NCBI GenBank assembly: GCA_964016885.1
Contig: OZ024742.1
Coordinates: 89,404,001 to 89,468,000, forward strand
DNA length: 64,000 bases
Reading direction: 5' to 3'
Source of the DNA: Eledone cirrhosa
Taxonomy: Eukaryota
Below are positions 6,154 through 64,000 of the stretch, one piece after another. The first letter of the stretch is position 1. The number at the start of each line of letters is the position of its first letter. The notes beneath the pieces were generated by a model. The model saw only the letters and a program-made list of their open reading frames with translations. It was not told the DNA's origin and did no database searches. The position numbers and the translations under genes are program-made.

Positions 6154-6252
6154 GAGAGAGAGAGAGATACATCAAGTGTAAATGTGTATCAACTTTACTT
6201 ATATAGTTGCCAAATTTAAACAATATTAATATTCGCTTTTTTATTATTTTAG

Positions 6253-6899
6253 GTTATGGTTACTGTGGTACCCAGGTGTATAACCCTGCGACTCAAATTT
6301 GCTGTGAATCTCAGGTTTTATCCAAAAATGGATTGAAGAGGCCTGCTTGCTGTGGAAGTGTAGTATTTGATGGGGAAGATAAATTATGTTGCGCTGGTAC
6401 TTTAATAAATAAGGCACCAACCGTGAATGCATGTTGTGGCAACGCGGGGATAGATGCATCTCTTAAAGTCTGTTGTGGGGGGAAAGATAAAGTCAGGCTC
6501 ACCGAAGTATGTTGTGGTGGGGTAGCAGTTTATAGAGTAACTGTAGTTGATAGTTGTTGCGGGACAGTTCTTATCAATACATACAAAGAACTTTGCTGTG
6601 GTGGGGTTAAAAAGGTGATCGCAACCAGCTTTCCCGGAGGTTCTAATGTCATAGAAAACACATACGCTTGTTGTGGATCCAACATTTACAAAACAACTGT
6701 AAACGAATGTGTCGCTGGAAATATCAGGTCAAAGCATGTCCATTATCCACATCCACCAATGCTACCACCCAGAATACCAATACCACCACCCCAACTACCA
6801 ATACCGCATCCCCATCTACCAATACCACATCCCCAACTACCAATACCACCACCCCAACTACCACTATATCCATGGTGGACACGGCCGGGGTGGCAATAA
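6253..6899 (+). CDS. Galaxin-like protein, terminal exon (dicysteine CCG repeats plus Pro/His/Gln-rich tail)
   Basis: Open frame with repeated CC(G) motifs (YNPATQICCESQVL..ACCGSVVFDGEDKLCCAG..ACCGSNIY); pyrimidine tract and AG acceptor at 6251-6252; TAA at 6897; AATAAA at 6915 and 6928. Upstream exon(s) not located. Confidence 0.8.
6779..6862 (+). repeat. 4 x 21-bp coding minisatellite (IP[P/H]P[Q/H]LP)
   Basis: AATACCACCACCCCAACTACC-type units in tandem. Confidence 0.9.
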
Positions 6900-18396: not shown

Positions 18397-18877
18397 AGAT
18401 GGCACTAAAGTATACTGGTAGAACCTGAAAATAAAATCTGCCACCAAATTAAAGCACATCCGTCCTGGTATTGTTGTTTGGGACCACACATTGAAAACGT
18501 GCTCTTTTGTAGAGATCAGCAGCCCACTTTATGTCAACGTTGTGAGAAAATACAAGAGAAGGAGGACATCTACGGATTATTGGTGAGGAGTTTGCAGATC
18601 CAGTATCCAAGATACACCTTCAGCTTCATAGCCATCATTATTGGAGCTACAGCTTACATACCAATCCACTTGGACTAAAGTATAACTGAACTTGGATTTG
18701 TGGACAAAGAACGCAGCTCCCTAATTCATAGACAACAAATGGCCGAGATAGCTGGCACCTTCAAGATCTGCAAAACATTCTTGCAATTCAAGTGATGACA
18801 ATTTCTTTTCTTTTACAAACTTGCCAGCAGGAAGGTGGCCGGTCAAAAATGTACTCGAAATTAAGAGAAAGAGAAAC
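18397..18877 (+). mobile_element. R4/Dong-clade 3' fragment (REL domain and 3' UTR)
   Basis: Highly similar to 21494-21976 but with stops and frameshifts; flanked by TACA repeats. Confidence 0.9.
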
Positions 18878-18956
18878 ATACATACATACATACATACATA
18901 CATACATACATACATACATACATACATACATACATACATACATACATACATACATA

Positions 18957-21900
18957 AAGAACCCACTAAATTGGAATTGGAAGCGGTGAACGAAATAGCT
19001 GGCAATTATCTGAAGGCTATACGATCTAAAGGTGTAGAAACGACATTTGAAACGCTCAATGTTTTGTTATATGTTTCAGCTGTCACATTGCTATCATATA
19101 ACACACATCTAAAACCACGCAATCAAGATACAAACAGAAAGCCTGAACCAGCGTGGATGCGAAATTTAAAAACCAAAATTTTGTCCCTGAGACGAAGTAT
19201 CTCACACATCGCAGTTGTTATGAAATGCAACATAGAGAGAAACTTCACACGACACCAGGAAGACCTAAAGAAAAAGTTAGAGAGACGATTTGGAGATACC
19301 AAATTTAAAACTTTGAACTCCAAATTACACCAGTTGAAACAACAACTCACAGCTACAACAGAAAGACTAAAATATAAGTCAACAGCCCATAAACGACAAG
19401 TGCTAAATAGATTGTTTGCCAGAGATCCTAAATCAGTTTATCGCAGCTTCGGTGGCAAAAGCTCAATCCCTGTAAACGACACCCCTTCAAAAGAACAGGT
19501 TGAGAACTACTGGAGATCTGTATGGGAAACGGATGACGGATTCAACAGACAAGCTAATTGGCTAAAACAACTGGAACAGGACTACTGCCAACATGTCCAG
19601 ACAAAACAATATGACATAGATGGGTCAATACTGGAAACAGCTCTACAGAAAATCTCGAATAGGAAATCGCCAGGCCCAGACCTCATTACAGGATACTGGT
19701 TGAAGAATTTCACTTTCTATCGGCAAGATCTCATACGGCTGTTTACAGAAACCATTAAGGGCACACAAGAACTGCCCAGATGGTTATCAACTGCCACTAC
19801 TCTCCTCATTCCCAAAAATAGCCAAACCACCCTTGCTAAAAATTACCGCCCAATTGCCTGCCAAAACATCATGTATAAATTATATACTGGGTGCCTTAAC
19901 CTGTTCTTACAGGATCACTGTGCTACCAACAACATCATAACACCTGAGCAAGCTGGTGGAAAGAGGGAGGTGTGGGGTTGCATAGATCACCTACTAACTA
20001 ACAAAATGATTCAGGAAAAAACAACAAAGAATCGCAGAAACATGACTGTCGTGTGGCTGGACTATCAAAAAGCATTTGATAGTGTACCTCATGGGTGGAT
20101 TATTAAGGCTTTACAGTTAGCTAAAGTCCCACAACCATTAGTAGCTGCTGTTGAACGCCTGACCAAGAACTGGTACACCAATTTGATCCTTAGAGGTGAG
20201 AAGGAGCAGGTTAAGACTGATAGGATACATTACCAGAAGGGCATCTTTCAGGGTGATAGCTTGTCAGTACTACTCTTCGTTCTCTCACTGAATCCACTAT
20301 CTTACCTACTCAGGAAACAAGGTGGACAAAGAAGTGGGCCCAGAAGTATCTCCCATCTTTTCTTTGTTGATGACCTGAAGTTGTATGGGCCAAATATCAA
20401 TGACATCAAGAAACAATTGGACCTCATTACACAATTTTCAACCGACATCAAAATGAAATTTGGTGAGTCCAAGTGTGCATATTTGGCAGTAAAACGTGGA
20501 AGAGCTGTGCCCTCCTCTAGAAATCTAGATATGAACGGCCTGACAATACAACCTCTGCAGTCAGGTGACAACTACAGATATCTTGGACAGGATGAGAATG
20601 TCAGATATGATGGACCCATAAATAAGGAGAGAACCAGAACTGAATACCTCAGAAGAGTAAAAAAAATATGGTCATCAGAACTGTCAGCATACAACAAATA
20701 CATTGCCCACAATACCTATGCTGTGCCAATTCTAACGCCAACATTTGGCCTACTGAACTGGTCATTGCAAGAACTAAGTGAGATGGATGTTAGAACTCGA
20801 AAACTTCTCAGTGTTACTGGGAACTTTAACATCAATGGTGATGTGGATAGGCTATACTTCTCACGCAAGGAAGGTGGCCGGGGTCTAAAATCAATATTAA
20901 CAACATATGAGACCCGGATAGTAACACTGAAGCAACACCTTCAACAGAGGAAAAAGGTTGGCGACCATCTTGCTCAGGTTTATGAGCATGAAAAAAGAAA
21001 TATCATTAGAATAGCGACTGATCTGGAGGAGAGATATGGAATAAAGCCTGATATAAATCTCTCACCCAGAGAAATCGGAAGATCCTATTCAATGTTCAAA
21101 CAAGAAAAGAAAATTGACCAATTTACAGAGAAAGTTGTGCATGGATACTTGAGGCGTAAAACACAGACCATAGAGGGGATAAACCACTCAAAAAGCCTGG
21201 CATGGAGTTCCGACAAGTTTATGACATCACACCTTGAGGGATATCTCTATGCAATACAGGAACAAGAACTCCCTACCAAATATCTGCTGCACAAAAGAGG
21301 AGGGCCAGCAGCTGACAATAAATGTAGGCTATGTAAAACAAAGATCGAGGATGTAAGCCACATTGTTGCCGGCTGCGAAAGAATGTCATCTCGCTACTAC
21401 CTCCCCATGAGACACGATGGGATAGCTAGAACTATCTGGAACGCACTTCGGAAAACAAAATTAACAACAAACGAGGAAGAATATATTGAGACAGATGGCA
21501 CTAAGGAATACTGGTGGAACCTGAAAATAAAAACTGCCACCAAATTAAAGCACAACCGGCCTGATATTGTAGTTTGGGACCACACATTGAAAACGTGTTC
21601 TGTTGTGGAGATCAGCTGCCCACTTGATGTAAACGTTGTCAGAAAAATACAGGAGAAGGAGGACATCTACGGACCATTGATGAGGAGCTTACAAATCCAG
21701 TATCCAAGATACACCTTTAGCTTCATACCCATCATTATTGGTGCTACGGGTTATATACCAACCCGCTTGGACCAAAGTATGACCGAACTTGGATTTGCGG
21801 ACAAAAAGCGCAGCTCCCTAATTCATAGTCTACAAATGGCTGCGATAGCTGGCACCTTCAAAATATGCAAAACATTCTTGCGATTCAAGGGATGACAATT

Positions 21901-25242: not shown

Positions 25243-27698
25243 ACTCCATCAGTTAGCGCGATCAGTCGCATATTTTGCCGTGTGAGACTATTTATTAAAT
25301 TTAAGATGAATACAATCTCCGACAGTAATGCCACAACTACAGCCAGGTTGAATAATTGGTTATTCTTCTAACTATCCCTTCTGAAGACACCTTTTATTCG
25401 AATTCGTAGAGATATCCGACTAAATACATAATTCATTTTACAAGGATTTGCTACAAACAACATGGTTGAACACAAAATCAACAAGAAAATTAAGGAAGTA
25501 TCGAAGACAAATAACAAAGAAGGTAATCAAACTTTATTCAGTTGTAGCTACAGAAGAAACCGAAATTATAAATCGCATTTCTCTTGGAGTTGCGAACTTA
25601 ATAATGATTTATTTAATTGTTATAAAATGGCAAAACACAATCCCTCCATTTGCTATATGAATAGAATGAAGCTACACTGGGACGAAATGCACCCATAACT
25701 AAATTATTTCACAGCGAAACAATTACACCAACAAGCGACGTTTGTTGAACGTAAAAATAAGATAAATATTATTAATTGTAAGTCCCCCACAACAAACCTG
25801 GAATAAACAACATGTGCTACAGATCGCCATGCTACTAGACTTCCTAGCAACCAGGTCGAACAGCGCCTTGAAACAACTATGCCTGTAAGAAACTTGACAC
25901 CACCTGTACCATCTAAGTCTACCTCGAATGCTGGGGAAAACACTATGGTTAATAACAATAATCGAAGAAATAAAAATAATAATCGAATAAATGTGACACC
26001 ACGTATACCATCCGAGTTTACCTCGACTGTTGTCGAAAATACTATCGATTATGATAATCAAAAGTATAAACAATTGAAAAATTCCCTCAACGAAAACTTT
26101 CAGAGAGAAATTAATTTATCTATAAATATCTCTCTGACTGAACGTGTTAAAATGACAATGGTGAATAAAAAACCAAATAATGAAATAGTACGTGTTATTG
26201 ACGAAATAGGGGATGAATATTTACGACGGATAAAAACCCCAACATTTTGGCAAATCAACGCCTGTTTATATGCCTTAGCAATGACAGTGAAGCATTATCT
26301 TGGTGATAGCAGAGATATTAACAAGAACAAAACACCACCAAAAATACCATCATATATAACTAGAATAGAAAAAAAGAGTGCTGACCTACGAAAAAACATA
26401 GGACATGTGACAATGCTCCTTACATGCAAACAAACACACAAAAAACACACTCCTCGCCAACAAAGAGTGAAAAGTAAAATAGAGACGATGTTTGGTAACA
26501 GTAGAACCAGAACTCCCCAATATAAGCTGATCACCCTCAAACAAGAATTGAGAGCTGTTAGCGAAAAACGCCGATACCTGAAGAAGGTAGATGAGAGAAA
26601 AATGCTTAATAAAAGATTCAGACGCAACCAAACATCAGTCTATAGAGATATAAAGGGCAAAATAATAAGCGTCACAGAGGCCCCATCCCAGAAAGACATA
26701 GATTCCTTTTGGAGAAAAATATGGGGTGAAAAGAAGAATTTCAACCAAGATGCAGTGTGGCTAAGAGAAATCCGAAAGAACTATTGCTGCTACACTACAA
26801 CAAAAACATACGAAATAAGTGAGGGTACCCTTGAGACTGTGATAGGAAAACTCCAAGATAAGAAAACACCAGGAAGAGACATGATTGTCGGCTACTGGTA
26901 CAAAAAACTAATATTCTATCGGAGGTATCTTACTGACCTCTACCAACAAGTTCTTAAGAGAGATACACTTATACCAGAATGGTTGACATTAGCACAAACG
27001 TTACTGGTCCCCAAGAACAAAGACACCCACTTGGCAAAAAACTACCGACCCATTGCATGCCAGAACCTGATGTATAAGATGTATACAGCCTGCCTGAACC
27101 TATTTCTCCAAGATCACTGTGAAAATAATAACATCATCACAGATGAACAAGCAGCTGGAAAGAAAAGGGTTTGGAGATGTGCTGAACAACTCCTAATCAA
27201 CAAAACTGCGATGTCGGAGGTGCGACAACTTAGGAGGAATATGATTACAGTCTGGCTGGACTACAAGAAAGCTTTCGATTCTGTTCCCCACTCTTGGATG
27301 ATAGAGGCCCTCCAACTTGCTAAAGTCCCAGCCATTATTGTCAGAGCCATAGAGAGGCTGTCTTCTTCTTGGGCTACTATCCTAAGGTTAAAGACAGAGA
27401 GGGAGGACTCTATTTTCACTGATAAAATAAAATATTGCAGGGGTATATTTCAGGGGGACAGTCTCTCTGTGATATTGTTCATCTTGTCATTAAACCCCTT
27501 GTCCTTTCTGCTCTAGAAATGTGAGGGATACATCATTGGCTCACAGGAGGAGAGAAATACGAACCTAACCCATAACTTCGTTGTGGACGATCTGAAACTC
27601 TATGCCAAGACCATGGATGGGATGAAGAAAAATCTTGACCTGGTTCCAACGTTCTCAAAGGATTTAGGAATGGAGTTTGGCCAAGATAAATGCTCATA
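25243..27698 (+). mobile_element. R4/Dong-clade element, 5' two-thirds (N-terminus and RT), decayed and 3'-deleted
   Basis: ORF 25879-27516 aligns with 19157-21895 (NYRPIACQN, WLDYKKAFDSVPH, GIFQGDSLS); stop at 27514, then FVVDDLKLY; frameshifted N-terminal region upstream. Confidence 0.9.
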
Positions 27699-35065: not shown

Positions 35066-35139
35066 TGTATATATATATATAATATAATATAATGAAATGA
35101 CAGGAGGCTGGATTTGTGTAAATCCTTGAAAGGTTTATT

Positions 35140-35197
35140 ATACTATGATAATTTCAATGACCGGGTTCCGTATGAATCCGGTGATATCATCAGGTAT
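35140..35197 (-). ncRNA. Hammerhead ribozyme motif (U10.1/U11.1 variant)
   Basis: Reverse complement of AUAC-CUGAUGA-UAUCACCGG..CCGGUCAUU-GAA-AUUAUCAU-A-GUAU. Confidence 0.75.
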
Positions 35198-37244
35198 TCG
35201 AAATATAAAACGTGAATGTAATAGATAAAATCCATGGGGCTCAAAATCGAGGACCTGAGGGCGATCGCTATCCTGTACCTTCTACCTTAGCCGGTCGCCC
35301 TCGAATGACGTGGCTAAAGCTTACAGTGTGCTACTACCGGTCAGATAAAGGAAAACAGAAAGGGATGGGAACATAAGTTAGCGTTAATCTCATGCCACAA
35401 GACAAAAGAAAGAAAGAAAGGAGGGAGAGAGAAGAAGGGGGAAGGAAGAAGAAGAGAAGCTAGGGTTAATGTCAGCTATAAGAAGAAAGACAGAAAGAAA
35501 CGGAGGAAAGGTCGGTATTACAGTTAGGCCAGGATTGTCGCGAAGAAATTGTTTTTTTATTCTACGGGACACGTATCTAAACAACTACTACCGGTCAGAT
35601 ATAGGCAAACAAAAGAGGGGAAGGAAGATAAGTCTGCGGGAGGAAGACAGAAAGAGGGGAGAATAGAAGGTAGAGAATGAAGAAGTAGAAAAGTAAGGGT
35701 TGGTGGCTACAAGAAGGAAGATAGAAAGCAATAGGAAGAAAGGTCGATATTAATGTCAGACTACAGTCAGGCCAGGAGTGGCGCGAGAAAATTTTCACAG
35801 GGACCCGTATCTTAGCAGAGGTGAATATATTGGGGGTCAGTGTGTTATAATGTGTGAGCAGAATATTGGAACGTTACGTTTTTGTTTAGACTTATAGGAT
35901 GAAGTTAAAAATTAATAATTAATATTTAATATTAAAGAAATTAGAAAATTTAAAGTTAAGCAGTTTAACATTTTAAGGTTGATATATCTAATAATTCTGA
36001 TTTGATCTGTAATTTAAAGGTACTATGTGGTGGTTAAAACACCGGCCGCGCTCCGGGCCCCAGGGGAGAATTAAGCCACTCCGAGTAGTTTCATTTACCG
36101 AAAGAAGGGGAAATTTATTTTCCCAAGCACTCGAGGTAGGCCCATGCACCAGGGGGCTGGTCGCGCCGCCATTCAAACCCACCCAACAGTCCGACAGAAA
36201 GTTGGAACTTTAAAATATTGTTTAAATTTATAGGATGAAGTTGAAAAGATTTATAATTAATACTTAATATTAAAGAAATTAGAAAATTTAAAGTTAAACA
36301 GTTTAACATTTTGAAGTTGATATATCTAATAGTTCTGATTTGATCTGTAATTTATAGGTACTATGTGGCGGTTAAAACACCGGCCGCGCTCCGTGCCCCG
36401 GGGGCGAATTAAGCCACTCCGAGTAGTTTCATTTACCGAAAGAAGGGGAAATTTATATTTCCAAGCACTCCAGGTAGGCCCATGCGCCAGGGGGCTTGTT
36501 GCGCCGCCATCAAAACCCACCCAGCAGTCCGACTGAAAATTGGAACTCTAAAATCTTGCTTAAATTTATAGGATGAAGTTGAAAGAATTTAGAATAACAT
36601 TATAAAATTAAAGAGTAAGAAGATTGAGTATTGAACAAACAGAAAAATGAAAATTAAACATTTAAAAAAACTTCTATGAGGTTTTGGGTTGCGGGGTTTA
36701 ATTAAAGAGAGTCTTTTATGAAAAAACGCTAATTGTATTATGTAGATCTATAAGTTATCCTAGTGGGATGTAGAGTACGGGATATAGTCGTGTAATATTT
36801 ATTTTTGTTCTCAGGGGGAGACATTCTAGTGTCGTGTGCTAATGGGTACAAGTGAGCAAAAGTCCCAATAGGAGGAGTAGAAATACATGGATACATAGAA
36901 GTGGAATACGTGGAAGAGCACATTGATAAAGCAAAGGTATAAATATATAAACATATCAATATATAAATATAAATATGTAAATAAAGAAATAAGAGTGGTG
37001 TTGGAGTAAGATGGAGAAATCAAGACATAGGAGAAGTACAATATAGTTCAGGTTGCAGTATTTACCACTTGACAGAGCTGGTCTATTCCGTATTGTCAAT
37101 CGTAATGTAATAATATAGAGAGTACTCAACGTAAAGCAATTCAACCGTCTTTGTTTTTGTAGTTGGTGGTGCTATTACGGAGTTAAATATATTATAATGA
37201 AATGACAGGAGGCTGGATTTGTGTAAATCCTTGAAAGGTTTATT

Positions 37245-37302
37245 ATACTATGATAATTTCAATGACCGGATTCCGTATGAATCCGGTGATATCATCAGGT
37301 AT
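37245..37302 (-). ncRNA. Hammerhead ribozyme motif
   Basis: Same family as 39730. Confidence 0.75.
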
Positions 37303-37628
37303 TGGAAATATAATATGTGAATGTAATAGATAAAATCCATGGGCTGAAAATCGAGGACCCGAGGGCGATCTCTATCCTGTACCTTCTACCTTAGCCGGTC
37401 GCCCTCGAGTGAAGTGGCCAAAGCTTACAGTGTGCTACGACCAGTCAGATAAAGGAAAACAGAAAGGGATGGGAACATAACATGACCGGTAGTAGCACAC
37501 TGTAAGCTTTGGCCACGTCACTCGAGGGCGACCGGCTAAGGTAGAAGGTACATGATAGCGATCGGCCTCGGGTCCTCGATTTTCAGCCCCATGGATTTCA
37601 TCTATTACATTCACGTATTATATTTCGA

Positions 37629-37686
37629 ATACCTGATGATATCACCGGATTCATACGGAACCCGATCATTGAAATGATTATAGTAT
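37629..37686 (+). ncRNA. Hammerhead ribozyme motif
   Basis: Same family as 39730. Confidence 0.75.
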
Positions 37687-39729
37687 AATAAACCTTTCAA
37701 GGATTTACACAAATCCAGCCTCCTGTCATTTCATTATAATATTTAACTCCGTAATAGCACCACCAACTACAAAAACAAAGACGGTTGAACTGCTTTACGT
37801 TGAGTACTCTCTATATTATTACATTACGATTGACAATACGGAATAGACCAGCTCTGTCAAGTGGTAAATACTGCAACCTGAACTATATTGTACTTCTCCT
37901 ATGTCTTGATTTCTCCATCTTACTCCAACACCACTCTTATTGCTTTATTTACATATTTATATCTATATATTGATATGTTTATATATTTATACATTTGCTT
38001 TATCAATGTGCTCTTCCACGTATTCCACTTCTATGTATCCATGTATTTCTACTCCTCCTATTGGGACTTTTGCTCACTTGTACCCATTAGCACACGATAC
38101 TAGAATGTCTCCCCCTGAGAACAAAAATAAATATTACACGACTATATCCCGTACTCTACATCCCACTAGGATAAATTATAGATCTACATAATACAATTAG
38201 CGTTTTTTCATAAAAGACTCTCTTTAATTAAACCCCGCAACCCAAAACCTCATAGAAGTTTTTTTAAATGTTTAATTTTCATTTTTCTGTTTATTCAATT
38301 CTCAATCTTCTTACTCTTTAATTTTATAATGTTATTCTGAATTCTTTCAACTTCATCCTATAAATTTAAGCAATATTTTAGAGTTCCAACTTTCTGTCGG
38401 ACTGCTGGGTGGGTTTTGATGGCGGCGCAACCAGTTCCCTGGCGCATGGGCCTACCTGGATTGCTTGGAAAAATTAATTTCCCCTTGTTTCGGTAAATGA
38501 AACTACTCGGAGTGGCTTAATTCGCCCCGGGGGCCCGGAGCGCGGCTGGTGTTTTAACCGCCACATTGTACCTTTAAATTACAGATCAAATCAGAACTAT
38601 TAGATATATCAACCTTAAAATGTTAAACTGTTTAACTTTAAATTTTCTAATTTCTTTAATATTAAATATTAATTATTAATTTTTTCAACTTCATCCTATA
38701 AATTTAAACAATATTTTAAAGTTCCAACTTTCTGTCGGACTGTTGGGTGGGTTTAATGGCGGCGCGATCAGCCCCGTGACGCATGGGCCTACCTTGAGTG
38801 CTTGGAAAAATAAATTTCCCCTTCTTTCGGTAAATGAAACTACTCGGAGTGGTTTAATTCGCCCGGGGGTCCCGGAGCGGACGGTTTCTTAACCGCCACA
38901 TAGTACCTTTAAATTACAGATCAAATCAGAACTATTAGATATATCAACCTTAAAATGTTAAACACTGTTTAACTTTAAATTTTCTAATTTCTTTAATATT
39001 AAATATTAATTATTAATTTTTTCAACCTCATCCTATAAGTCTAAACAAAAACGTAACGTTCAAATATTCTGATCACACATTATAACACACTGACCCCCAA
39101 TATATTCACCTCTGCTAAGATACGGGTCCCTGTGAAAATTTTCACGCGCCACTCCTGGCCTGACTGTAGTCTGACATTAATATTGACCTTTCTTCCTCTT
39201 TCTTTCTATCTTCCTTCTTGTAGCCACGAAACCTTACTTTTCTACTTCTTCATTCTCTTCCTTCTCTCCTCCCCTCTTTCTGTCTTCCTCCCGCAGACTT
39301 ATCTTCCTTCCCCCTTTTTGTTTGCCTATATCTGACCGGTAGTAGTTGTTTAGATACGGGTCCCGTAGAATAAAAAAAAGATTTCTTCGCGACAATCCTG
39401 GCCTGACTGTAATACCGACCTTTCCTCCTCTTTCTTTCTGTCTTTCTTCTTATAGCTGACTTTAAACTTGGCTTCTCTTTTTCTTCCTTCCCCCTTCTTC
39501 TCTCTCCCTCCTTTCTTTCTTTTGTCTTGTGGCATGAGATTAACGCTAACTTATGTTCCCATCCCTTTCTGTTTTCCTCTATCTGACCGGTAGTAGCACA
39601 CTGTAAGCTTTAGCCACATCACTCGAGGGCGACCGGATAAGGTAGAAGGTAGAGGATAGCGATCGCCCTCGGGTGCTCGATTTTCAGCCCCATGTATTTT
39701 ATCTGTTACATTCACGTATTATATTTCGA

Positions 39730-39787
39730 ATACCTGATGATATCACCGGATTCATACGGAACCCGGTCATTGAAATGATCATAGTAT
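39730..39787 (+). ncRNA. Hammerhead ribozyme motif with palindromic stem III
   Basis: AUAC-CUGAUGA-U..ACCGG..CCGGU..U-GAA-AUGAUCAU-A-GUAU. Confidence 0.8.
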
Positions 39788-40223
39788 AATAAACCTTTCA
39801 AGGATTTACACAAATCCAGCCTCCTGTCATTTCATTATAATATTTGCTCCGTAATAGCACCACCAACTACAAAAACAAAAACGGTTGAACTGCTTTACGT
39901 TGAGTACTCTCCATATTATTACATTACGATTGACCATACGGAATAGACCAGCTCTATCAAGTGGTGAACCTCAAACCTGAATATATATATATATATTTAT
40001 ATATATATATATTATTCAATTCAGGAAAGTTTGTTGATCATTTAATCCGCTGACGTTTTTTGTAAACGGACATAAAGCACTCTATAAAATATCATTTTCG
40101 TTTCTATTTATTCTAACTTTATTTGATTTTGTTTTTTTTATTTTCTAATTTAATTTAATTGTTTGATAATGTAGTTAATATTACAATTGATGTAGAGAAT
40201 ATAAAACACATACAAATGTTCAG

Positions 40224-48516: not shown

Positions 48517-51390
48517 TAGGGTGTGGCATAAAAGGCAAGGTCACAATACTAACGCTCCCTGTGTATTTTCCCCATTATAAATGCCCCAATTGGTAAAATA
48601 AATCATATTTTGTATAAAATAAATTATTTTGAGACTTGTCTATATCATGGTGATTATAGTAGAGTGTGATTATGTTGTATGAAATCATGAAAATGTGAAA
48701 CCAAATATGACCATACAATAATTGTTTATTTTATTAATCCATTATATTAGTAAATCAGCTACAAGGAAGAAACAAGTTCAGTTAAGTTAACTCCAGTCAT
48801 ATTTTTTTCAGAGTTTCTTTTTTGAAATCAGCGACGACTAGCTTCGACTACTTGAAGAACACACTGATTCTCCTCCTCATTCTTGGTGATGGCAACAAAA
48901 TCAGTCATCAACTTGACTGCTCTCTTCGTCGTTGACTACCTTGATATTGTGAACAACAGCACAGGCATTTTGATATGACGCTTGTGATGACCAAGTTGCA
49001 GGTGACAGCTCAAACCAAACATCGTCGAGATCAAGGAAATCGAACAGAAGCCTTGATTTCTTCCCAACTAGATGAGGCAGCTTCGTGGACGACTTCAACT
49101 CGGGAAATACTGGAGCATCACGATCGAGAGGCCCAGACGTTTTCGTTTTGACAAGACGCTGGGCTATTTGTTTCTTCTCGGACTCTTGGACCCGATTTCA
49201 GAACAGCGCTAGCGGAATGGCTTCCACTGTCATGTACCAAAGATGCCTGCTCAGAGCAGTAGTGGCTGCCTGCGAGAGATCTTTGTCAACCTTACTGTAC
49301 TGTGTCAACTCCACGTAAAATTGGAGGTCATTGGATGGTGTATCAGCACACTTGACTGCTGTCAGCCAGTATCGCACGTAGAACAGAGCATTGAAAATAC
49401 AGATCCGGCGCAACTTTCACCTTTTAGCTTGATCGTAATTGAGTCACTCACCAAATGCATACATCTTTGCACTATAGATGATTGTGGACATCCACCAAGC
49501 GTTATGATGTGCACCAGGCCGCATCCAATGAATTCCACGAGGAGGGGTGACACCAAGCAAGATCAACATCCACTCGGCACATCCTCGGTAGTCGTCAGAT
49601 GTCAGCAAATCTTGGAGGAACTTGATGTTCTCAGAACACAGACGCTTGAGTCTCCGGTCGACAATGTTCAATGTTTTAAAGTTGGTCTTGTCCGTGAGTA
49701 ACACCCAATCTTTTTTGAACTCCTTGAACTCTGGGGTGTCTGGACTGGACATTACTCCGAATAGTTGTTGCCACACTGCACACAAGATACGCTCCATGAA
49801 TGGTGCCGACAAGCAAAATAAAACACCTTTTTGTTGAGCATCTCTTCTAGTTTCACGCAGGCACCATTTTTCCATCCAGAATTCTAAGCAATTGTGTCGA
49901 AGATCAAGCCCACCACAGACCCATCAACATTCCAATCTTTAACAAGATCAAATGATGCTTTGGCTTGGGTGGTTCCAGTGCCATCAGGAATTATGGGAAC
50001 ACCGAGGAGTTTACCTTCTCTGAAGTCCGGAGTTCCAGCAACTAGCACACCTAGCCTCTCGTGGTCACCAGGAATTATTTTGCCATCCCAATGCAAGGTA
50101 ACAAAGTCTGGTACAGCAAATTGTTCCTTTATGTGTTCAGCCCCCACAGTTTGATCTTCTTAGCTGCACGTCTGCTACTATTCTTGGAGAGAGTTGTGGC
50201 GTCTATGTCAGTCCCATCCTCAGAAATAATCGATGCCATAAATGTTGTTTTCTGGCCCAGTGTCAGCTTTAAACGATCTGCCATTAGAGAAATTTTTCGA
50301 CTTTGAAATGGATTCTTTGCGAGTTCCTCGTTTCTTGTCTGACTTTGAACTGTTTCTGGGTGGGTTTGAGGGCTGAAATTCAGGATCCTGTTCATCTTCA
50401 GTTTCATCATTGGTTGAACTTGAATCTCTCAGTTCATTACGTGGACGTTGTGCTGCTACAGGACCTGACAAACGCTTTCTATCGTTCTCTGACTCTCGAC
50501 GAGCCACAGAAACCTGATTACGCTTAAACTTTGAAGATAGCTTTTTCTGGTAACCCTTGTCTTCAGCACCCAGAGATACTTTTTTCTGGCAACGCAGGGC
50601 TTCGAGAAATGTAGCATCTTCCATTTTCTCTTCATTATTACGAAGACGGTCTTTCAAAATTTTCTTTTCTGCATCAGCATGTGCAATGTAGAAATACGAA
50701 TCCAATTCAGAAATAAATAGTGCTTCCTTTTCTTTGTTTGACTTAGAACCTTTGTTTCTTTTGTAAATTTCTATATTCACTGTACATGTTCATAATTTTC
50801 AGTTTCACTTTGTCTGTTCGTTGAGTCGCCACACCAGCTTTTTCCAACTGACTAACTATTTCCATCACATATCTATCCGCAATAGCACCATTGAAGCTCA
50901 CATGCTTTTCGTGTTTCATAGAACCATTTTTCAGGTAGAAGAAATATCTTAGAACATCCCCCTTTGTTGGTATTTTGTTTGGTGATAAGGATGTAACATA
51001 TTGCCCCAGGAGCCATATTTCTCGATTATCACAACGGAGCGAGTAGCTACAACTAGGCCTACTGGTTTCCGAAATTATTCTGCCAATTTGCAACTATTAG
51101 GCAAGGCTTAAATTAGTCTGAAATAATCAAAATTACATTATAAATTGATAATATACAAAATGGCATAAGAAAATGCATAGGGAGCTAAGAAAAAGACACT
51201 TTTGTGTAAAATTATCGACAGCAAATGCCTACAGCAATGGTATGTCCCACTGCGGGCTCTGTAATTTAGAACTGCTGCATATTTTAAGAGACGATAGGAT
51301 GCTGCTTAACATCAAAATAGAAAAATCCATTTTCTGTAGGCATAAAATAGCTACTAGATTTACGAACTTCAAACCACCATGATTTGAACC
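48517..51390 (-). mobile_element. Decayed hATm-type DNA transposon
   Basis: KIPTKGDVLRYF, LHWDGK, FDTIA, DDYR, RPGAHHNAWWM, RHLWY and KVVND in order; terminus TAGGGTG at 48517; second TIR not seen; many frameshifts. Confidence 0.75.
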
Positions 51391-52978: not shown

Positions 52979-55900
52979 TCTATATATATAAATCTGAGGA
53001 TGTGTGTGTTAAGGTCTGTAACGGATTCACGTCCACAACTTCCGACGGATTCTATTCAAAGTCAGGACAATTATTGCTTTTGGTCAGGAAAAGGTCATGA
53101 AGCAAAAGGAAATTCAAATCCATCAACAATAAGGGCAAAAATCGATCATGATCATTCCCCCTCGCTATAATTTAACTGTTTTACTCTCTCTGTCGCTCTT
53201 CACTCCCTAAATAACAACACTGCAGAGAGAGAAACAATGTGTATGATCAAATGGAGCGTTTCGTATATTCCCTCTCTCTATAATTTAACTGCTTTACTCT
53301 CTCTGTCGCTCTTTACTCCCTATATGACAACACTGCGGTGGAGCATTCCGTATTGAGCGTTCCGTATTGACATACGGCTTATATGGTGCATTATATAAAT
53401 CGAAATGTAACCCGTGAACTTTTTCCTGGGCAAAATTATTCGAACAGACATGACCTCATTGCCAGAGTGTTCAGACTGAAACTGGCTAAACTCATGGCTT
53501 TTATCAAAAAGGGTCAGGTACATGGGGCTGCAAAATGTGACATGTTCACCGTCGAATGGCAAAAACGAGGGCTTCCGCATGCTTACATTTTGATTTGGTT
53601 AGCTGATAAAATCAAAACAAATGCCATAGACAGCTGAAATCCCTAACCCAGCAACTGACCAGGAATTACATAATATCAGCAAAGCTAACATGGTCCATGT
53701 GCCTCGGGTCCTAATGAGCATTACGCGTGTCTGAAAGAGGGGTCGTGCAGTAACGGATACCCCAAAAAATGTGTTGACCAGACTCAGACTGGTGGCGACG
53801 GGTACCCCCTGTACAGGCCCGAGACGGCCCGAGAACGGTTGTGGCTTCACCACAACAGTAAAGGCAGGTCAAGTCGACAATAGATGGGTGGTCCCTTACT
53901 GCCCGCTTCTCTTGAAGATGTTCAATGCCCACATCAACGTTGAGATTTGCAACTCCGTCAAGTCGATAAAATACATATACAAATATGTAAATAAGGGCTC
54001 TGATGCCGCAATGTTCGCATTTCAAGCTGAAAATAGCAGGGATGAGATTACAGAATACCTGGCGGGGCGGTACATCAGTAGCAATGAAGCTTTTTGGCGC
54101 CTATTTGGTTTACCCCTACACCAATGGCACCCCGCCATCGTACAGCTTGCGGTACATTTGGAAAATGGGCAAAGGGTTTACTTTACGGACCAAACCGCCG
54201 CCAAGTTGGCCGCCGACCGAAAGAGACCATTCTGACGGGTTTCTTCAAACTTTGCCAGTTCGATGCATTTGCGCAAACAATTGTGTACCCCCAGGTTCTC
54301 TCCTACTTTATATGGCCGAAAAACACGTGAGTGCGAAGAAAGTCAGGTCAGGCTGTTGAAAGACATCCTGGTGTAAAATTTGACAGCTGTCTTGGAAGGG
54401 TTTACACTGTGTCCCCAAGTCAGCATGAGTGCTTTCATCTCCGCCTTCTTGTGCATGAAATTGCAGGCCCACAAAGTTTTCAGGACCTCAAAACTGTTGA
54501 TGAAGAAATATGTGATACGTACTGGGAAGCCTGCTTTAAACGTGGTCTCTTGAAAGGTGATTCGCAATGGGATTCCACTTTAGCATAGGGTGCTTTGTTG
54601 AAATCAACTAAAAGTCTACGAGAACTCTTTGCCATTTTGCTTCAAAAGTGTGAATTGGGTGATCCTAAATCTTTCTGGGTCAAGTACAGAGACTTGATGT
54701 CTGAGGACTTCCTGCGCCTGGCTCATCTGCAGTATCCTTCAGTGGAAGTTGGTTGCAGCGACATTATCTACAACAGGGCACTCATTGATATCGAGGACGC
54801 CCTCCTCGACATTGTAGGGAACGAATTGGCGACGTATGGTTTGCTGTCAACCATCAGAGAGGACGCTAACACGTTGGCCCCGGATTTGTTGCGAGAAACA
54901 GCATATGACATCGATTCTCTTTCCCAATACATAGAGGAAAATGAGCCTAAACTTCTGTCGGACCAAAGGTTGGCTTATTTAACTATCATTGACGCGGTTC
55001 AAAATGAGACTGGGGGTATTTACTATCTCGATGCTCCTGGGGGTAATGGAAAAATCTTGGGAACAAAATTGATTCTCGCTAAGATTCGTCAGGAGAAAAA
55101 AATTGCGTTGGCCGTTGCATCGTCCTGGATCGCTTCTACTTTGCTGCCGGGAGGCAGGACAGCACACTCAACCTTAAACTCCCCTTGGATTTAGTAAAAA
55201 CTGAGACACCAACATACAATATCAGCAAGAGTTCACACGAAGCTCTGGTTCTCAAAAAATGTTACCTCATATTTTGGGATGAGTGCACAATGGCACACAA
55301 GGGTGCGCTTGAGGCATTGGACAGGACTCTGAAAGACATTAGGGATTCTACGACTCCTATGGGTGGCGTAACCCTTCTGCTATCAGTGGATTTTCGGCAA
55401 ACGCTGCCTGTCATCCCCAAAGGGACAAGAACTGATGAAGTGCGTGACTGCCTTTTAAGTTGTCCATGTTTAGCCCCAGGTGAAGAGTTTGTAGCTGAGC
55501 ACAAATGTGAGTGCTCATTTGCATGGTGACAACATGTCTGCAGCATTTTCTAACATTTTAACATTTGGTGTGGGCAATGTCCCTGCGGATGACAAGGGCG
55601 GCATAGCAATCGACTCTCTGTGCAACATTGTGAGCATCCCTTCTGAGCTTTGGGAAGCAGTTTTTCCTAATGTCTTTAATAACTTTAAAAAATTCGATTG
55701 GCTCAGCGAAAGAGCCATCCTTGCTCCGAAAAATCCCATGGTTAATTTTATTAACGAGCAGCTGAAGAAGATTCCCGGTAAAGAGCACATCTTCAAATCT
55801 ATCGACCTGACGTCAGACCCCGACGATATCGTTAATTATCCGGTTGAGTTATTAAATTCCCTTGAGCCCCCAGAGCTCCCACCTCACATTCTTAAGCTTA

Positions 55901-56629
55901 GGGTTGGCCGTCCCATTATGCTAATAAAGAACATGCGTCCACCAAAGCAGTGCAACGGTACTCGCATGGTCGTCAAGTCACTGACGCCCCAATTGGTTGA
56001 GGCCACCATTGTAACAGGGTGCGGGAGAGGGGAGAATGTTCTCATTGCAAGGATGAACCTTTTCCCCTCGGTGTCAGATATCGCGTTCTATTTCCGGCGA
56101 TTCCAAATCCCGGTGAGACCATGTTTTGCCAAGTCACAAGGGCAAACATTGTAGGTGGCGGGCATCCATTTGGGAGAGCCATGCTTCGCCCATGGCCAAA
56201 TTTATGTTGCCTGTTCTCGTGTTCTCGCGTAGGGAGCAGGAATAGATATTTTGCTTACACTCCTCAAGGGATGACACCCAATATCGTCTACAAATAGGTG
56301 TTATAGATGTTGATGCAGGTGTTGGAGGTGTTGGAGCAATGCCGTCTAGAAAACTATTTCCAGGTAGGGTCACGCTTGGCGGACAGATCTGACACCCAGC
56401 GGCATCAGGGCCACCATCTTGCAACTTTGGTCTGCTAAATTCGGTATTGGAAGATTATTAACCCATCATTGATTGTCCAAAATGCTAATTGGTTCGTAAC
56501 TTTTAATAACCGGTTCAGCTGCTTTATGTACTTAATTGATAAGCTTATTTGCTTTCAAGCCACGTTTACCTGTATGTAACTTTTCATAGAAAATGAACAA
56601 ACCTGAACAACGCCGGGCTAAACTGCTAC
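52979..56629 (+). mobile_element. Decayed autonomous Helitron (Rep plus Pif1 helicase)
   Basis: A|TCTATATATATAAA start; EWQKRGLPHAYILIW (HUH), KYIYKYVNKG (Y2), LDAPGGNGK, WDECTM, DFRQTLPV, KSQGQTL; 3' hairpin CCTG..CCGGG then CTAC|T; many stops. Confidence 0.92.
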
Positions 56630-57501: not shown

Positions 57502-57558
<57 letters not shown>

Positions 57559-57564
<6 letters not shown>

Positions 57565-59510
57565 AATGACAGGAGGCTGGACTGGTGTAATTCCTTAAAA
57601 GGTTTATTATACTATGATCATTTCAATGACCGGTTTCAGTACGAATCCGGTGATATCATCAGGTAATCGAAATATAACAAAGGAATATAATAGACAAAAT
57701 CCATGGGGCTGAAAATATTTTCAGGGCTTTTGGGATTCACTTTGGATATTCAGACTCGAACATACACTAGGTATCACCTGATACCATTCCTACTCTTCCA
57801 TCCTGTATATCTATATGTATAACATTGCATTCTCCAACCGTGCTATATATTGCCCATTTACTGCACCTTGATCTGTATTTTATTTCTTCTGTATTGTGAT
57901 TTCTTCTATGTTCTTATATACTTCCTTTTTACTCCCTACATCACCACCCTAGGTATGACTGTATTTTGTATTTTACTTATGGTATTACTTATGCATTTAT
58001 TTACTCCCTTTACTCTCATTATATACGTATCCTTGTACTCATTAGCACACGACCCTATAATATTGCTCTCTGTACCCTTATATCTGTCTATCTTTATTTA
58101 CTCCCCCTACCCACCCAGGTATCATACTACATATAACCGGACTAACTATAGTCTATTTGCACATTTCATCAGATTTTATCACTTTCAACTTCACATCACG
58201 GGTGTGAATAACTAATAATCGTTTGGTACACGCGATGATCCGACTGATGTGGCGGCTTTCCCGACTGCACACCAGTCGCTCGGGTCGATCAGCCTTCCTT
58301 GAGTGCTTGGAAAAATAAATTTCCCCTTCTTTCGGTAAACGAAAATACTCGGAACGGTTGCTTCGCCCTGGGGCCCTGCCGGACTTGGAACCCGCCTCGA
58401 CACCGGTTATTGACTGCCAAACAGTACCTTTAAATTCTAGGCTTAATCATAACTTTTAATTTTATCTAGCCTCCTTCTACTAGCACTTAACTAAATCCCC
58501 CACCAGTGTGAATCACTAGTAGTCGTTTGTTGTATACGATATCCGGCGGACGGTGGCGGACTTCCCGCTGGCACACCCGACGCTTAAGACAGTTAACATT
58601 CCTGGGGTGCGCGGAAAAATAAATGTCCATTTCTTTCGCTATACAATAATACTCGGAACGGCTAACACGCCGTTGGGCCCCGGGCTGGCCGGGGGTACGC
58701 TACGTCGCTAAGCATGGGTTTAATCTTTACTCTGTATTCTACCCTGAAACTTTATCGTGACTATCTATAATACACTGAAACTTTTTCATAACAGCCCCCT
58801 TCTGTAAATTCTTTAACTAAATCTCACAACTTCAAACTTAAACCTTATTTTTCTAATTTCATCTTAAATGGCATCTTCTAACTCTAAACATAAATTTAAC
58901 GTTTCTAATTGTTAATCGAAATTTCTGTCCATACATTATACCATGCAGACGCCCACTATATATTTCTATATATAGTTTTGTTAAGATATATGTTCTTTGA
59001 TAAAATATTTTTCGCGGCACTTCTAGCACGCATGACCAGCTTGATTGTGACCTGACTTCAACGCTGGCCTCTGTCTTTGAAGGGATGGTAGTATTACACT
59101 ATAAGCCTACGCCCCTTCACCAAATAGTCATATGTAGGCTTAATAATGACCACATGAGGGCGACCGACTGGGGTAGAAGCTGGTAAATGTTCGGTCGCCT
59201 TCATGTCCGAGATTTTCAGCCTCATGGATTTTGTCTATTATATTCCTCTGTTATATTTCGATTAGCTGATGATGTCACCGGATTTATTCTGAACCCGGTC
59301 ATTGAAATGATAATAGTATAATAAACCTTTTAATGAATTACACGAGTCCAGCCTCTGTAATTTTATAATAATTAACTCCGTACTCGCAACACCAACTACA
59401 CAAACGAAGACGGGTGAGTTACAATACGTTGAGTGCTCTCCATAATATTACATCGAGGTTGACGATACTGAATGACCAGTTCTATCCAGTGGTGAACCAA
59501 CAAACCTAAA
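57559..59510 (+). mobile_element. ORF-less ~1.9-kb PLE-type element (inverted pLTR, body, pLTR), diverged relative of 35088-39981
   Basis: HHRs at 57609-57665 (-) and 59262-59319 (+); shares the pLTR and the duplicated internal module; (TA)n on both sides. Confidence 0.85.
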
Positions 59511-59619
59511 TATATATATATATATATATAATGGAAACATTTGAACAGGGACAAAACAGAGAGGCAGTACAACGAATGTTTATTAATTTCACGCTCTGGA
59601 GAGTGGGGTGTTGGTGGGG

Positions 59620-61777: not shown

Positions 61778-64000
61778 ATACTTTGGGAGGGTCATGTTGC
61801 CTATAAGAAACATACGCACCAGTGCTTTCACTTCAATTTATTATATATTTATAAATTTCTGGTTGGTTGGTTGGTTCCACAACCAGATAGTTGTTTATAT
61901 ATAGTCATAGTTCTTTCGTCACACACTCTGTGACCTCTTCAGTGACTGGGGATTCCTTTCTTTGTTTCTGTGCCTCTCCTTTGATCTGTCCTACGCCATT
62001 TTGTTTCTGTGTGTGTGTTGTGTGCTCAGTCTGCGCATGCGCCACATCCGGGTGTCTGTGTGTGTTTGTATTCATTTATCTATTTGTTTATTTACATGTT
62101 ACTGGTTGGTTGTTTGTTCTATGTGTGTGTGTGTTTTCATTTTGTCCTTAATTGTAAGTTGTGATGTTGCTGTTCCACTCATATTTTCTATTTAATTTTG
62201 GTTGTAATTCTTTTATGATTATTGCCTCTGTAATTTGTCTAAACATTGCGTCTTTTCTGTGTGTAGATTCTATTTTTATTTCTATGTTCTCTAATTCACT
62301 CTTGTGTTCTATCTTAGCATGTTGGTAGAGTACAGATGATTCTTTATTATCTTGAAGGTCTCGCCAGTGTTCATTTATCCGTTCCCCTACACTACGAGCT
62401 GTCTCACCTATGTACACTATATTTTTGTCTCTACATTGTCCTTCAGTACATCTTATGCTATACACTACATTTCTAGTTTTACAGTTAATATGGGGGCTTA
62501 TTTTACAGGTTACACATTTCTTATCTATACATAAGTTCTTTGAAAAGGGTATGTCTTGCTAATAAGTGTTTTTACGGAGGTACCTGGTCTTTCTACTATC
62601 TTAATATTGAGTTTATGTTTATTTAGGGCCCTTCTAAAGTTGTAAGCTAGTTCACCTCTAGGGGTTGTATCGATGAACATTACACTCTGGTATTTATTGC
62701 TATAATACCATGAGTTTATTCTATTAGCCTTGTTCCTAGTTCTTTCTATTCTATTCCAAAATTTGCTCCTATACAAGGGTCAGGTCCCATTTATGTCATT
62801 ATTTACCATTTTCTCCCATTTGGTTCTGGCTCCTCTATACACTCTGATTCTATCTCTCTGATTATAGCCAGAGAACTGCATACGGTGGATGGAGTATTGT
62901 ATGTGTCTCTCTAGTTCTTCGGTGTTGCACATGCGGGACACATTTCTCATCACCCGTACCAAATCCTCAATCAGTATGTTGATTTTGGTATGGTCCGAAA
63001 TGACCGAGTTTCGGTGGATCAGATGTTTGGAAGTCATGGGTTTGGCATAATGTGAATGGAGTATTTGTGTTTTGTTGTTAATGGTATCTAACCAGAGCTC
63101 TGTGTCTAGTACAGGTAATCGATGGTTGGGGTGTTTACTTGGGTAGTCTATAGTAACTCTAATGCTCTGGTGGATGGAGTTTGCTATTTGCTGGATGCTT
63201 TCCATTGTGTTTTTCTCTAGTTCCTGACTGTTCTCTAGTGGGGGTGTCTTAACTACGATGTTTATATCATCTACGTAGCGGGAGTACATTATCAGGGTTA
63301 AGGGGTCTTCTAATTGTTCTTTAAGTTTAAGTTTAAGTCTACTGTCCCACCATACCATGAATAAGTTAGCTATGTCGCCTGCAATGCTAACACCAATGGC
63401 TGCTCCTTCCTCTTGGGCATATGTTTTCCATTAAATTTGAACATATGTTCCTTAAGGGTTAGTTTTATGCTGGCCCCTACCGCATGTGCAATCATTTTCT
63501 TCAGTTCATCGTGGTTTTCGGGTGTCCGTATGGCTCTGGTCCACCCGTTCCATCTATCTGTGTGGGTTTTCTTGGCCATTGAGGTAATGGTAGGTGGTCT
63601 GCCTCTTGCTGGTCTTGTAGGGCACAGGTTGCTAAGGTCTTAAGTGTCTAGGTAACTATTACTATAGGTAAGCTTAAGTAGGAGTCCCAGCTCACTGGTA
63701 TCAATCCCACGGAACTCAACCTTGCTCTCACTGATCATATCTACGCATTTCTCCACAGCAAAATCCACGTCAATAGATGGATACAGGGACACAACATCCA
63801 TACTGCCTATTATGCAGTTTGTTAGCTCCCCAGATCAGTTACTCACGCCGATTCTGCTGAGGAGGTCCTCCGTGCTGTCACATACATCTGGGGACATTTC
63901 AATGATGGGGCGTATGATCAGGGAGAGGAAGTAGGACAGTCTGTAGTTACTAGCAATGTTAGCTCCACAGACTGGCCGTGTTGGTGGTCCAGCGACAGGG
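61773..64000 (-). mobile_element. Penelope-like element: RT, GIY-YIG and pLTR; frameshifted; runs off the window
   Basis: GSMDVVSLYPSID, AIGVSIAGDIANLFMVWWD, YSRYVDDI, LPVLDTEL, VYIGETARSVGERINEH, RQITEAIII..LN. Confidence 0.92.
61903..61947 (-). ncRNA. Minimal hammerhead ribozyme in the Penelope pLTR
   Basis: AGUCA-CUGAAGA-G-GUCAC..GUGAC-GAA-AGAACU-A-UGACU; perfect 5-bp stem I. Confidence 0.88.

What the first reader, a model, noticed from the sequence alone, without database searches (positions are those of the whole stretch)
38383..38915. Unrecognised multibranch RNA module, tandemly duplicated and conserved across diverged ORF-less HHR elements
Seen: a GC-rich ~145-170-nt island in AT-rich spacer occurs six times: 38420-38563 and 38757-38898 (338-bp period), their inverted partners at ~36025-36520, and 58250-58419 and 58554-58710 in a relative whose surrounding body is unalignable by eye. 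On the HHR strand the stems persist through substitutions. Outer stem: UGGCGG with CCGCCA, CUGCCA or UCGCUA. Inner stem: GAGUG or GGGUG with UACUC, extended by UUCC/GGAA and CAGCC/GGUUG. It closes a junction with hairpins GGAAA(AAUAAA)UUUCC and UUUCG(GUAAA)UGAAA or CGAAA. A conserved CGCC..GGGCCC block follows. The G-U pairs favour this strand, and no reading frame is kept open in all copies. Inference: a selected cis-acting RNA I cannot assign to a known family (new ribozyme, RT-recruitment element, or sequestered poly(A) signal). A TATAAA lies ~24 nt before each module in the first family.
Basis: partly seen in the sequence, partly recalled or inferred. Interest (0 to 1): 0.8.

Follow-up and report, generated by a model that had tools for sequence, protein, structure and literature searches.

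The report
Y-capped RNA rod in Penelope parasites
A large family of protein-less jumping elements in this animal genome keeps, besides its self-cutting ribozyme, an unclassified sequence that is predicted to fold into a long RNA rod with a Y-shaped tip and is likely a protein-docking signal the element needs in order to be copied.

Summary
Confirmed, with corrections. The six copies lie in ~2-kb ORF-less Penelope-like elements (hammerhead in the pseudo-LTR, TA-repeat flanks, 5' truncation and inversion). The genome holds 951 exact copies of a 24-nt core. All 43 full monomers recovered carry the module, 42 of them at least twice, and it aligns across the deepest subfamilies where, in several copies, only it and the hammerhead still align. 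It is predicted to be a ~200-nt rod capped by a near-invariant three-way junction: arm pairing beats shuffles in 17 of 17 groups, better on the hammerhead strand in 16. Column covariation is mixed: not significant on sequence-only alignments of the cap, positive on a model-fitted one (108), partly positive for the proximal helix (112). No Rfam match. Best reading: a selected cis-acting RNA that docks protein for mobilisation in trans; whether helper protein or host export factor is untested, and no helper element or RNA data were found.

The parts
37483..39986 (+). Family-A ORF-less Penelope-like element (pLTR part, body, two modules, pLTR), ending in a TA repeat; lacks ~330 nt of the usual 5' body
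35081..37480 (-). Inverted partner copy of the family-A element (95% identical palindrome 35084-39843)
38396..38575 (+). Module copy 1 (M1 type), predicted rod; Y cap 38459-38508
38734..38910 (+). Module copy 2 (local 338-bp re-duplication of M1); Y cap 38796-38845
36350..36530 (-). Module copy 3 (inverted partner of copy 1)
36012..36195 (-). Module copy 4 (inverted partner of copy 2)
58221..58423 (+). Module M1 of the family-B element, predicted rod; Y cap 58301-58350
   Evidence: z -2.74, 1 of 200 shuffles
58523..58712 (+). Module M2 of the family-B element (old paralogue, 73% to M1); Y cap 58605-58654
57556..59511 (+). Family-B ORF-less Penelope-like element, with a short inverted 5' piece (57556-57716, minus-strand hammerhead core at 57662) and TA repeats on both sides
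39730..39787 (+). Minimal type I hammerhead: AUAC/GUAU stem I, CUGAUGA, long stem II, GAAA, palindromic stem III AUGAUCAU (predicted to need a dimer); other copies have the core at 37633 +, 59266 +, 35193 -, 37298 -, 57662 -
   Evidence: sequence, core scan; not the minimum-energy fold as a monomer; type as in PMC4209133
39623..39672 (+). GC-rich hairpin just upstream of the hammerhead, at whose 5' arm 5' truncations cluster

Best explanation
The module is a conserved non-coding segment of ~2-kb ORF-less Penelope-like elements that is predicted to fold into an imperfect ~200-nt RNA rod capped by a Y-shaped three-way junction and likely serves as the docking site that loads the element's RNA onto the protein of an autonomous Penelope-like helper. 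Shown: the host architecture, copy number, lack of a shared ORF, retention of at least one module in every full monomer examined, a two-module layout in both the B/C and the older Y/W lineages, loss of M2 and re-duplication of M1 in family A, near-invariant cap sequence with changing arms. Inferred: transcription from the pseudo-LTR; folding in vivo; the rod presenting the cap to a protein that reads the invariant GAGUG/UACUC and GGAAA/UUUCC helices and junction bases; copies with a working cap being reverse-transcribed more often, which would explain why the cap is kept like the ribozyme although the inserted copies themselves decay neutrally. That the protein is the helper's RT rather than a host factor is the weakest step.
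For: Retention: 43 of 43 full monomers have a module, 42 two or more (43 of 60 fetched sites gave a monomer); 26 of 30 other start sites show one within 1.5 kb. Depth: against a B monomer, Z copies L334, L335, L350 and L353 align only at the module and (3 of the 4, plus a short hit in L353) the hammerhead (16 of 30 Z loci displayed, some with weak 57-67% body hits); among three closer groups the M1 cap window is 0.93 identical, equal to the hammerhead windows (four other 40-nt windows reach 0.94-0.97, with less of their length aligned). Structure: arm duplex z -2.0 to -4.8 in 17 of 17 groups, sense stronger in 16; own arms pair better than swapped arms, -11.1 kcal/mol against -0.5 +/- 2.7 in neutral simulation, 0 of 160; far W copies fold by themselves into the rod (z -2.2 with the same Y; z -6.5 with an alternative cap), a Z3 copy into the same Y; two-sided changes visible in natural copies: P2 A-U to G-C (Z1), P3 U-A to A-U (Z3, Z4), U-A to C-G (W), G-C to G-U to A-U; 16 of 25 pairs with two-sided change against 7.9 on the model-fitted alignment; proximal helix 71% paired against 63%, 28 two-sided cells against 14 on a sequence-only alignment. 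Neutral mutation in copies is AT-biased, yet the arms stay GC-rich. A Penelope-like protein does recognise a defined RNA stretch of its template (PMC11167929, first two of four parts read).
Against: No significant column covariation on sequence-only alignments: long form 13 pairs against 9.8 (36 of 500), score 121 of 500; cap 500 of 500 and 496 of 500 (loop-length shifts misalign P3); the two robust measures are not significant (92 and 153 of 500) and the register was chosen by eye; leans to the model. Fixed differences kept pairs less often than private ones (0.27 against 0.48; baseline inflated by circularity). Arm co-adaptation is not significant within groups (44, 41, 9 of 160) and some swapped arms pair as well as own arms. 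The Y fold is clearly kept in only 5 of 11 diverged lineages (0-5 of 60 null) and not in M2_C, M2_C2, Z1 or ZM2 representatives. Insertion breakpoints do not cluster in the module's 5' arm (p 0.38, 69 loci) though they do at the 3' hairpin. The one autonomous family tested has no module (0 hits in 11 loci), no helper was found, and the mapped binding site of Poseidon lies at the pLTR-ORF junction, not mid-body (PMC11167929).
Confidence: 0.36

Rival explanations
1. Same RNA fold, but it binds a host factor: a nuclear-export or stability element that lets a non-coding, possibly uncapped or untailed RNA reach the helper protein, like retroviral CTE or direct-repeat elements.
For: All structural evidence above; duplication with retention of at least one copy parallels the avian retroviral 115-nt direct repeats (PMC3856414, passages); absence from the autonomous family tested fits a need peculiar to non-coding passengers.
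Against: No sequence or Rfam likeness to known export elements; no localisation data.
Confidence: 0.26
2. A DNA-level enhancer or promoter: the cap is a cluster of imperfect palindromic factor sites (three TTC-N3-GAA-like 9-mers and a GGAAA..TTTCC site) whose symmetry mimics hairpins.
For: The cap is conserved in sequence and shows no covariation on sequence-only alignments; enhancers often duplicate in tandem (recalled); the site likeness is read from the sequence and recalled consensus, not tested.
Against: Does not explain 60-nt arms that stay complementary with changed sequence and G-U pairs on one strand; loop lengths between the half-sites vary by 1-4 nt; TATAAA is not conserved.
Confidence: 0.12
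3. A hairpin-held poly(A) signal that regulates where the element's transcript ends.
For: AAUAAA sits in the P2 loop in A, B, C, D and E; Z subfamilies have AUUAAA, AGUAAA or a shifted AAUAAA, which are recalled as tolerated variants.
Against: Most M2 subfamilies (AAUUAA, AAUUGA) and W (AAUAGAA) lack it yet keep the cap; ending the RNA mid-body would remove the downstream pLTR where reverse transcription starts (PMC11167929); full monomers read through both modules.
Confidence: 0.08
4. A decayed coding remnant or neutral passenger whose fold is inherited by chance.
For: Weak folding z of single copies; negative column tests.
Against: No shared ORF in 43 monomers (longest ATG frame 105 aa sense); the one 205-aa frame among 14 monomers is not shared by its relatives; indels of 1, 2 and 4 nt inside the cap between subfamilies; conservation like the hammerhead's. 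A protein search of the bodies against PLE proteins was planned but not run.
Confidence: 0.08
5. A new self-cleaving or ligating ribozyme.
For: Three-way junction inside an element that already uses a ribozyme.
Against: Few invariant unpaired bases (C-U in J1/2, one bulge U, one or two loop bases); no fixed breakpoint in the module; monomers span it intact; no Rfam ribozyme match.
Confidence: 0.05

Closest known systems
Non-autonomous Penelope-like elements (e.g. MRC1 and other nonautonomous Chlamys; PMC8557442 section 10)
   Same: Pseudo-LTRs, partial tandems, inverted 5'-truncated copies, no ORF, TA-repeat targets as in Hydra/Neptune/Naiad
   Different: About 2 kb with a conserved internal structured module in one to four copies; no autonomous partner identified here
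Animal non-LTR retrozymes (PMC7229834 passages; bioRxiv 10.64898/2026.07.22.740005 part 1 of 5)
   Same: Non-coding, type I hammerhead, derived from or related to Penelope-like pLTRs
   Different: Retrozyme monomers are 150-450 bp tandem arrays; these are ~2 kb, dispersed, mostly 5'-truncated; circular RNA not tested
Telomerase RNA CR4/5 (PMC4993307 passages)
   Same: Three-helix junction at the end of a long interrupted helix, one short hairpin with a ~5-nt loop; partner enzyme would be a TERT sister
   Different: No invariant A between the two hairpins, stem 3-5 bp and loop 3-5 nt variable, no template or pseudoknot seen, no Rfam match
Retroviral cis RNA elements: MPMV CTE, RSV direct repeats (PMC3856414 passages)
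   Same: Internal structured element of 100-200 nt, duplicated, at least one copy retained
   Different: No sequence likeness; host is a non-coding Penelope-like element; export not tested
Alu SRP-derived arms (recalled)
   Same: Two related structured arms in a non-autonomous retroelement that help it capture a helper's RT
   Different: No 7SL or tRNA origin detected; element is 2 kb and not Pol III-like

Membership tests
Penelope-like element, non-autonomous | Pseudo-LTR direct repeats with partial tandem and inverted 5'-truncated copies | tested here: met
Penelope-like element, non-autonomous | Minimal type I hammerhead in the pLTR with long stem II and palindromic stem III | tested here: met
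   sequence 39730-39787; 6304 exact core matches; definition PMC4209133; cleavage not tested; Rfam does not score it
Penelope-like element, non-autonomous | No RT/GIY-YIG ORF | tested here: met
Penelope-like element, non-autonomous | Shares terminal sequence with an autonomous partner | tested here: inconclusive
   no PLE protein directly upstream of the hammerhead in 60 loci; 30 further loci showed none in 3 read; search not exhaustive
Non-LTR retrozyme | 150-450 bp tandem monomers | tested here: not met
   hammerhead-to-hammerhead 1958-2405 nt in 14 monomers
Non-LTR retrozyme | Expressed as linear and circular RNA | not testable with these tools
   no RNA holder listed
Telomerase CR4/5 | Three-way junction of three short helices | tested here: met
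   predicted only
Telomerase CR4/5 | P6.1 of 4 bp with 5-nt loop, extremely conserved | tested here: inconclusive
   P3 has 3-5 bp and a 3-5-nt loop depending on subfamily
Telomerase CR4/5 | Invariant A between P6 and P6.1 | tested here: not met
   junction is CCUUC, AUUUC, CUUUU or CUAU
Telomerase CR4/5 | Binds and stimulates the RT | not testable with these tools
   needs biochemistry
Any Rfam family (ribozymes, SRP, telomerase, SECIS, IRES) | Score at gathering threshold, or any hit over the module | tested here: not met
   0 at gathering in the window; none of 6 weak hits or 60 weak hits in 6 loci lies over a module
Poly(A) signal hairpin | Conserved AAUAAA or AUUAAA hexamer | tested here: not met
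   absent from M2_C, D, E, F and W; present or near-variant in M1 and Z
Retroviral CTE / direct-repeat export element | Promotes export of unspliced RNA | not testable with these tools
   needs a reporter assay

The most novel reading that the evidence does not exclude
The Y-capped rod is a Penelope counterpart of telomerase RNA's CR4/5: a dedicated RNA domain that binds and activates a telomerase-like reverse transcriptase, carried in tandem by a 2-kb parasite RNA to outcompete the helper's own message. It would be the first defined RT-capture RNA for Penelope-like elements and a handle on how telomerase RNA arose.
Probability: 0.12. Interest if true: 0.9.

Novelty: new variant of a known kind. 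Interest (0 to 1): 0.6.

Why it matters
How Penelope-like elements, the sister group of telomerase, choose their RNA is barely known, and how their non-coding passengers are mobilised is not known. Here a compact, 50-nt near-invariant junction with many natural variants sits in an abundant passenger family and is conserved like its ribozyme, so the question becomes directly testable with a short RNA. If it is only an export or stability element it is still an RNA motif without an Rfam family, present in about a thousand or more copies.

Tried and rejected
Rfam at gathering and E-value level: nothing over the module. tRNA origin: none in the window. Exact 24-nt pattern in metagenome and viral contigs: 0 and 0, which says little for an animal repeat. 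Expression: no RNA holder listed; the two contig sets laid are one sample of unrecorded kind and give no evidence on RNA. ADAR editing as the force that keeps the rod GC-rich: no A>G excess over T>C among private variants in arms, cap, flanks or whole element (p 0.17-0.35). Breakpoint clustering in the module's 5' arm: none (7 of 37 breaks, p 0.38). Pair-keeping of fixed against private changes: not supportive and biased by design. Module in an autonomous C-terminal-EN family with an 1167-aa frame: 0 hits in 11 loci. Search for the helper through hammerhead and start patterns: all loci read were ORF-less or truncated. The 205-aa frame in L012 is a chance hydrophobic frame. Model R2 was built with a one-column error in my structure string and was not used. 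A planned protein search of the bodies, a per-subfamily helix table, stop counts per frame and a genome-sample scan for hyper-edited copies were not run. Literature: seven full-text searches showed no paper describing such a module; Repbase and Dfam could not be searched, subscription papers are missing, and supplements of PMC13282606 and PMC8557442 were not opened, so the host family may be catalogued there.

Full report
Observation. The window holds six copies of the module at the stated places, four in one 4.8-kb palindrome with a 338-bp local duplication and two in a second element. Its outer stem is an artefact of the chosen boundaries: with 30 nt of flank the segment folds as a ~200-nt interrupted rod in which UGGCGG pairs internally and the 3' CCGCCA pairs further upstream. 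TATAAA and AAUAAA are not general.

Host. The genome is 3.0 Gb in 1796 contigs; its repeats look octopus-like to me by recall, which I did not test. The elements have pseudo-LTRs with a minimal type I hammerhead, end in TA repeats and are mostly 5'-truncated, often with an inverted piece: the architecture of Penelope-like elements (PMC8557442, passages and section 10; PMC4209133, part 1 of 4). There are 6304 exact matches to a 19-nt hammerhead pattern, 951 to a 24-nt module pattern (reversed controls 0) and 130 to the pLTR-body junction. Of 60 junction sites fetched, 43 gave a monomer; none has a long frame (at most 105 aa from ATG on the sense strand), all 43 have a module, 42 have two or more. 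Monomers measure 1958-2405 nt (14 copies). Two paralogues, M1 and M2, about 300 nt apart, are the rule; family A lost M2 and re-duplicated M1 with periods of 338 and about 504 bp. A hammerhead-anchored locus led to older subfamilies Z, Y and W, which also carry one or two modules.

Selection. Among three closer groups the whole body aligns at about 0.7-0.9, and the M1 cap window (0.93) equals the hammerhead windows. Against Z, several copies align with a B monomer only at the module and the hammerhead. Private variants in inserted copies are AT-biased and strand-symmetric, so copies decay neutrally and the conservation must come from the source elements.

Structure, for. Cap: P1 GAGUG/UACUC, junction CUY, P2 GGAAA(U)/(A)UUUCC with an A-rich 6-9-nt loop, pyrimidine junction, P3 of 3-5 bp with a 3-5-nt loop, on P0 UUCC/GGAA. 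Arm pairing beats dinucleotide shuffles in all 17 groups (mean z -3.2 sense, -2.0 antisense; sense stronger in 16; 3-5 copies per group). Own arms pair better than swapped arms (71 of 78 pairs; -11.1 against -0.5 +/- 2.7, 0 of 160 simulations; 68 of 78). W copies, whose arms share little sequence with B, fold unprompted into the rod, one with the same Y and one with an alternative cap, and their alignment folds into rod plus Y under ribosum scoring but into the arm helix alone under default scoring. Two-sided changes can be read in natural copies of P2 and P3. The pair closing P1 is G-U, G-C or A-C by subfamily. On the alignment fitted to model R1, 16 of 25 pairs change on both sides against 7.9 +/- 1.6 (39 rows). 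On a sequence-only alignment the proximal 13-bp helix is 71% paired against 63%, with 28 two-sided cells against 14 (21 rows).

Structure, against. On sequence-only alignments the long form gives 13 two-sided pairs against 9.8 (36 of 500) and a score reached by 121 of 500 shuffles; the cap gives nothing, partly because P3 loops differ in length. In one search the pair and type counts, which the tool marks as the reliable measures, are not significant (92 and 153 of 500). One search found fixed differences less pair-keeping than private ones, though its baseline is circular. The arm signal rests mainly on the M1/M2 and long/short splits (within groups 44, 41, 9 of 160); the energy drop in that simulation is partly GC loss. 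The Y is retained beyond random mutagenesis in 5 of 11 diverged representatives and not in four. Short M1 forms have an alternative cruciform-like consensus fold. Breakpoints cluster at the 5' arm of the strong hairpin before the hammerhead (16 of 43 at risk in one 30-nt bin; 59 of 60 loci, L284 left out as another family) but not in the module (69 loci, p 0.38). I put a selected RNA structure at about 0.75.

Mechanism. A non-coding passenger must be transcribed, survive, and meet a helper's RT-endonuclease. An invariant cap on a rod of changing sequence is what a protein-binding site looks like, and duplication with retention of at least one copy suggests a dose-sensitive cis signal. I commit to helper docking (0.36) ahead of host export or stability (0.26), DNA enhancer (0.12), poly(A) signal (0.08), decayed remnant (0.08) and ribozyme (0.05). 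The Poseidon protein needs the first 172 nt of its ORF RNA and starts reverse transcription in a stem-loop past the hammerhead (PMC11167929, parts 1-2 of 4), so a mid-body site would be an addition, not the known site. The only autonomous family tested lacks the module and has a different pLTR.

Comparison and novelty. The host is a non-autonomous Penelope-like element; it fails the size test for retrozymes (PMC7229834, passages; bioRxiv 10.64898/2026.07.22.740005, part 1 of 5). The module resembles telomerase CR4/5 in outline but lacks its invariant junction A (PMC4993307, passages), and resembles retroviral direct repeats in behaviour only (PMC3856414, passages). No Rfam family matches; seven searches and the passages of an octopus repeat annotation (PMC13282606) showed no description; Repbase, Dfam and supplements were not seen. 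The scan's index has no look-alike and two unrelated notes. Verdict: a real, previously unclassified motif, new variant of a known kind (cis RNA signal of a non-autonomous retroelement), function untested; interest 0.6.

Noticed in passing
L296:1640-2110 and 2290-2530 (minus strand; G000:C1 near 27.33 Mb): Two segments of an inverted family-A2 copy carry dense A-to-G changes on the element's sense strand, loops included (10 A>G against 3 other private changes in the first 100 columns). This looks like an ADAR-hyper-edited transcript that was reverse-transcribed and inserted, a genomic fossil of editing and indirect evidence that the family moves through RNA.
   Followed up: partly
window 39623-39672 and relatives: 5' truncations cluster 90-130 nt upstream of the hammerhead, at the 5' arm of a GC hairpin of up to ~19 bp whose sequence differs between subfamilies; a likely template-jump hot spot.
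   Followed up: partly
L284 (G000:C1:21383362-21386362), 1100-870 nt upstream of the hammerhead: About five tandem ~52-nt GC-rich units with internal hairpins directly upstream of a Z-type module.
   Followed up: no
window 62148-63430 (-), hammerhead cores at 61942 (-), 5806 (+), 41158 (-): Remnant of an abundant autonomous Penelope-like family (RT, cysteine linker, GIY-YIG); copies elsewhere have open frames up to 1167 aa.
   Followed up: partly
G000:C3:89.3-90.4 Mb: The window's elements recur at 96-99% identity at six or more places in this megabase: a large segmental or tandem duplication.
   Followed up: no
window 6207-6899 (+): 230-aa cysteine-rich open frame (CCG repeats, galaxin-like by recall) with a proline-rich tail, probably a host exon.
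   Followed up: no
window 53735-56154 (+); 18752-21895 and 25807-27516 (+); 49444-51093 (-): Helitron-like helicase fragments, two non-LTR RT frames (1047 and 569 aa) and DNA-transposase-like fragments (names by recall).
   Followed up: no
window 4535, 15395, 17409, 42275, 43406 (+), 59650 (-): Further hammerhead cores of at least four other Penelope-like families in the same 64 kb.
   Followed up: no
start of the body, e.g. L151-L180: Every full monomer begins with the same TAAATAATG junction followed by a frame closed within a few to 70 codons, and a conserved TGTCGG..CCGACA hairpin ~150 nt in; possibly a vestige of the helper's ORF start.
   Followed up: no
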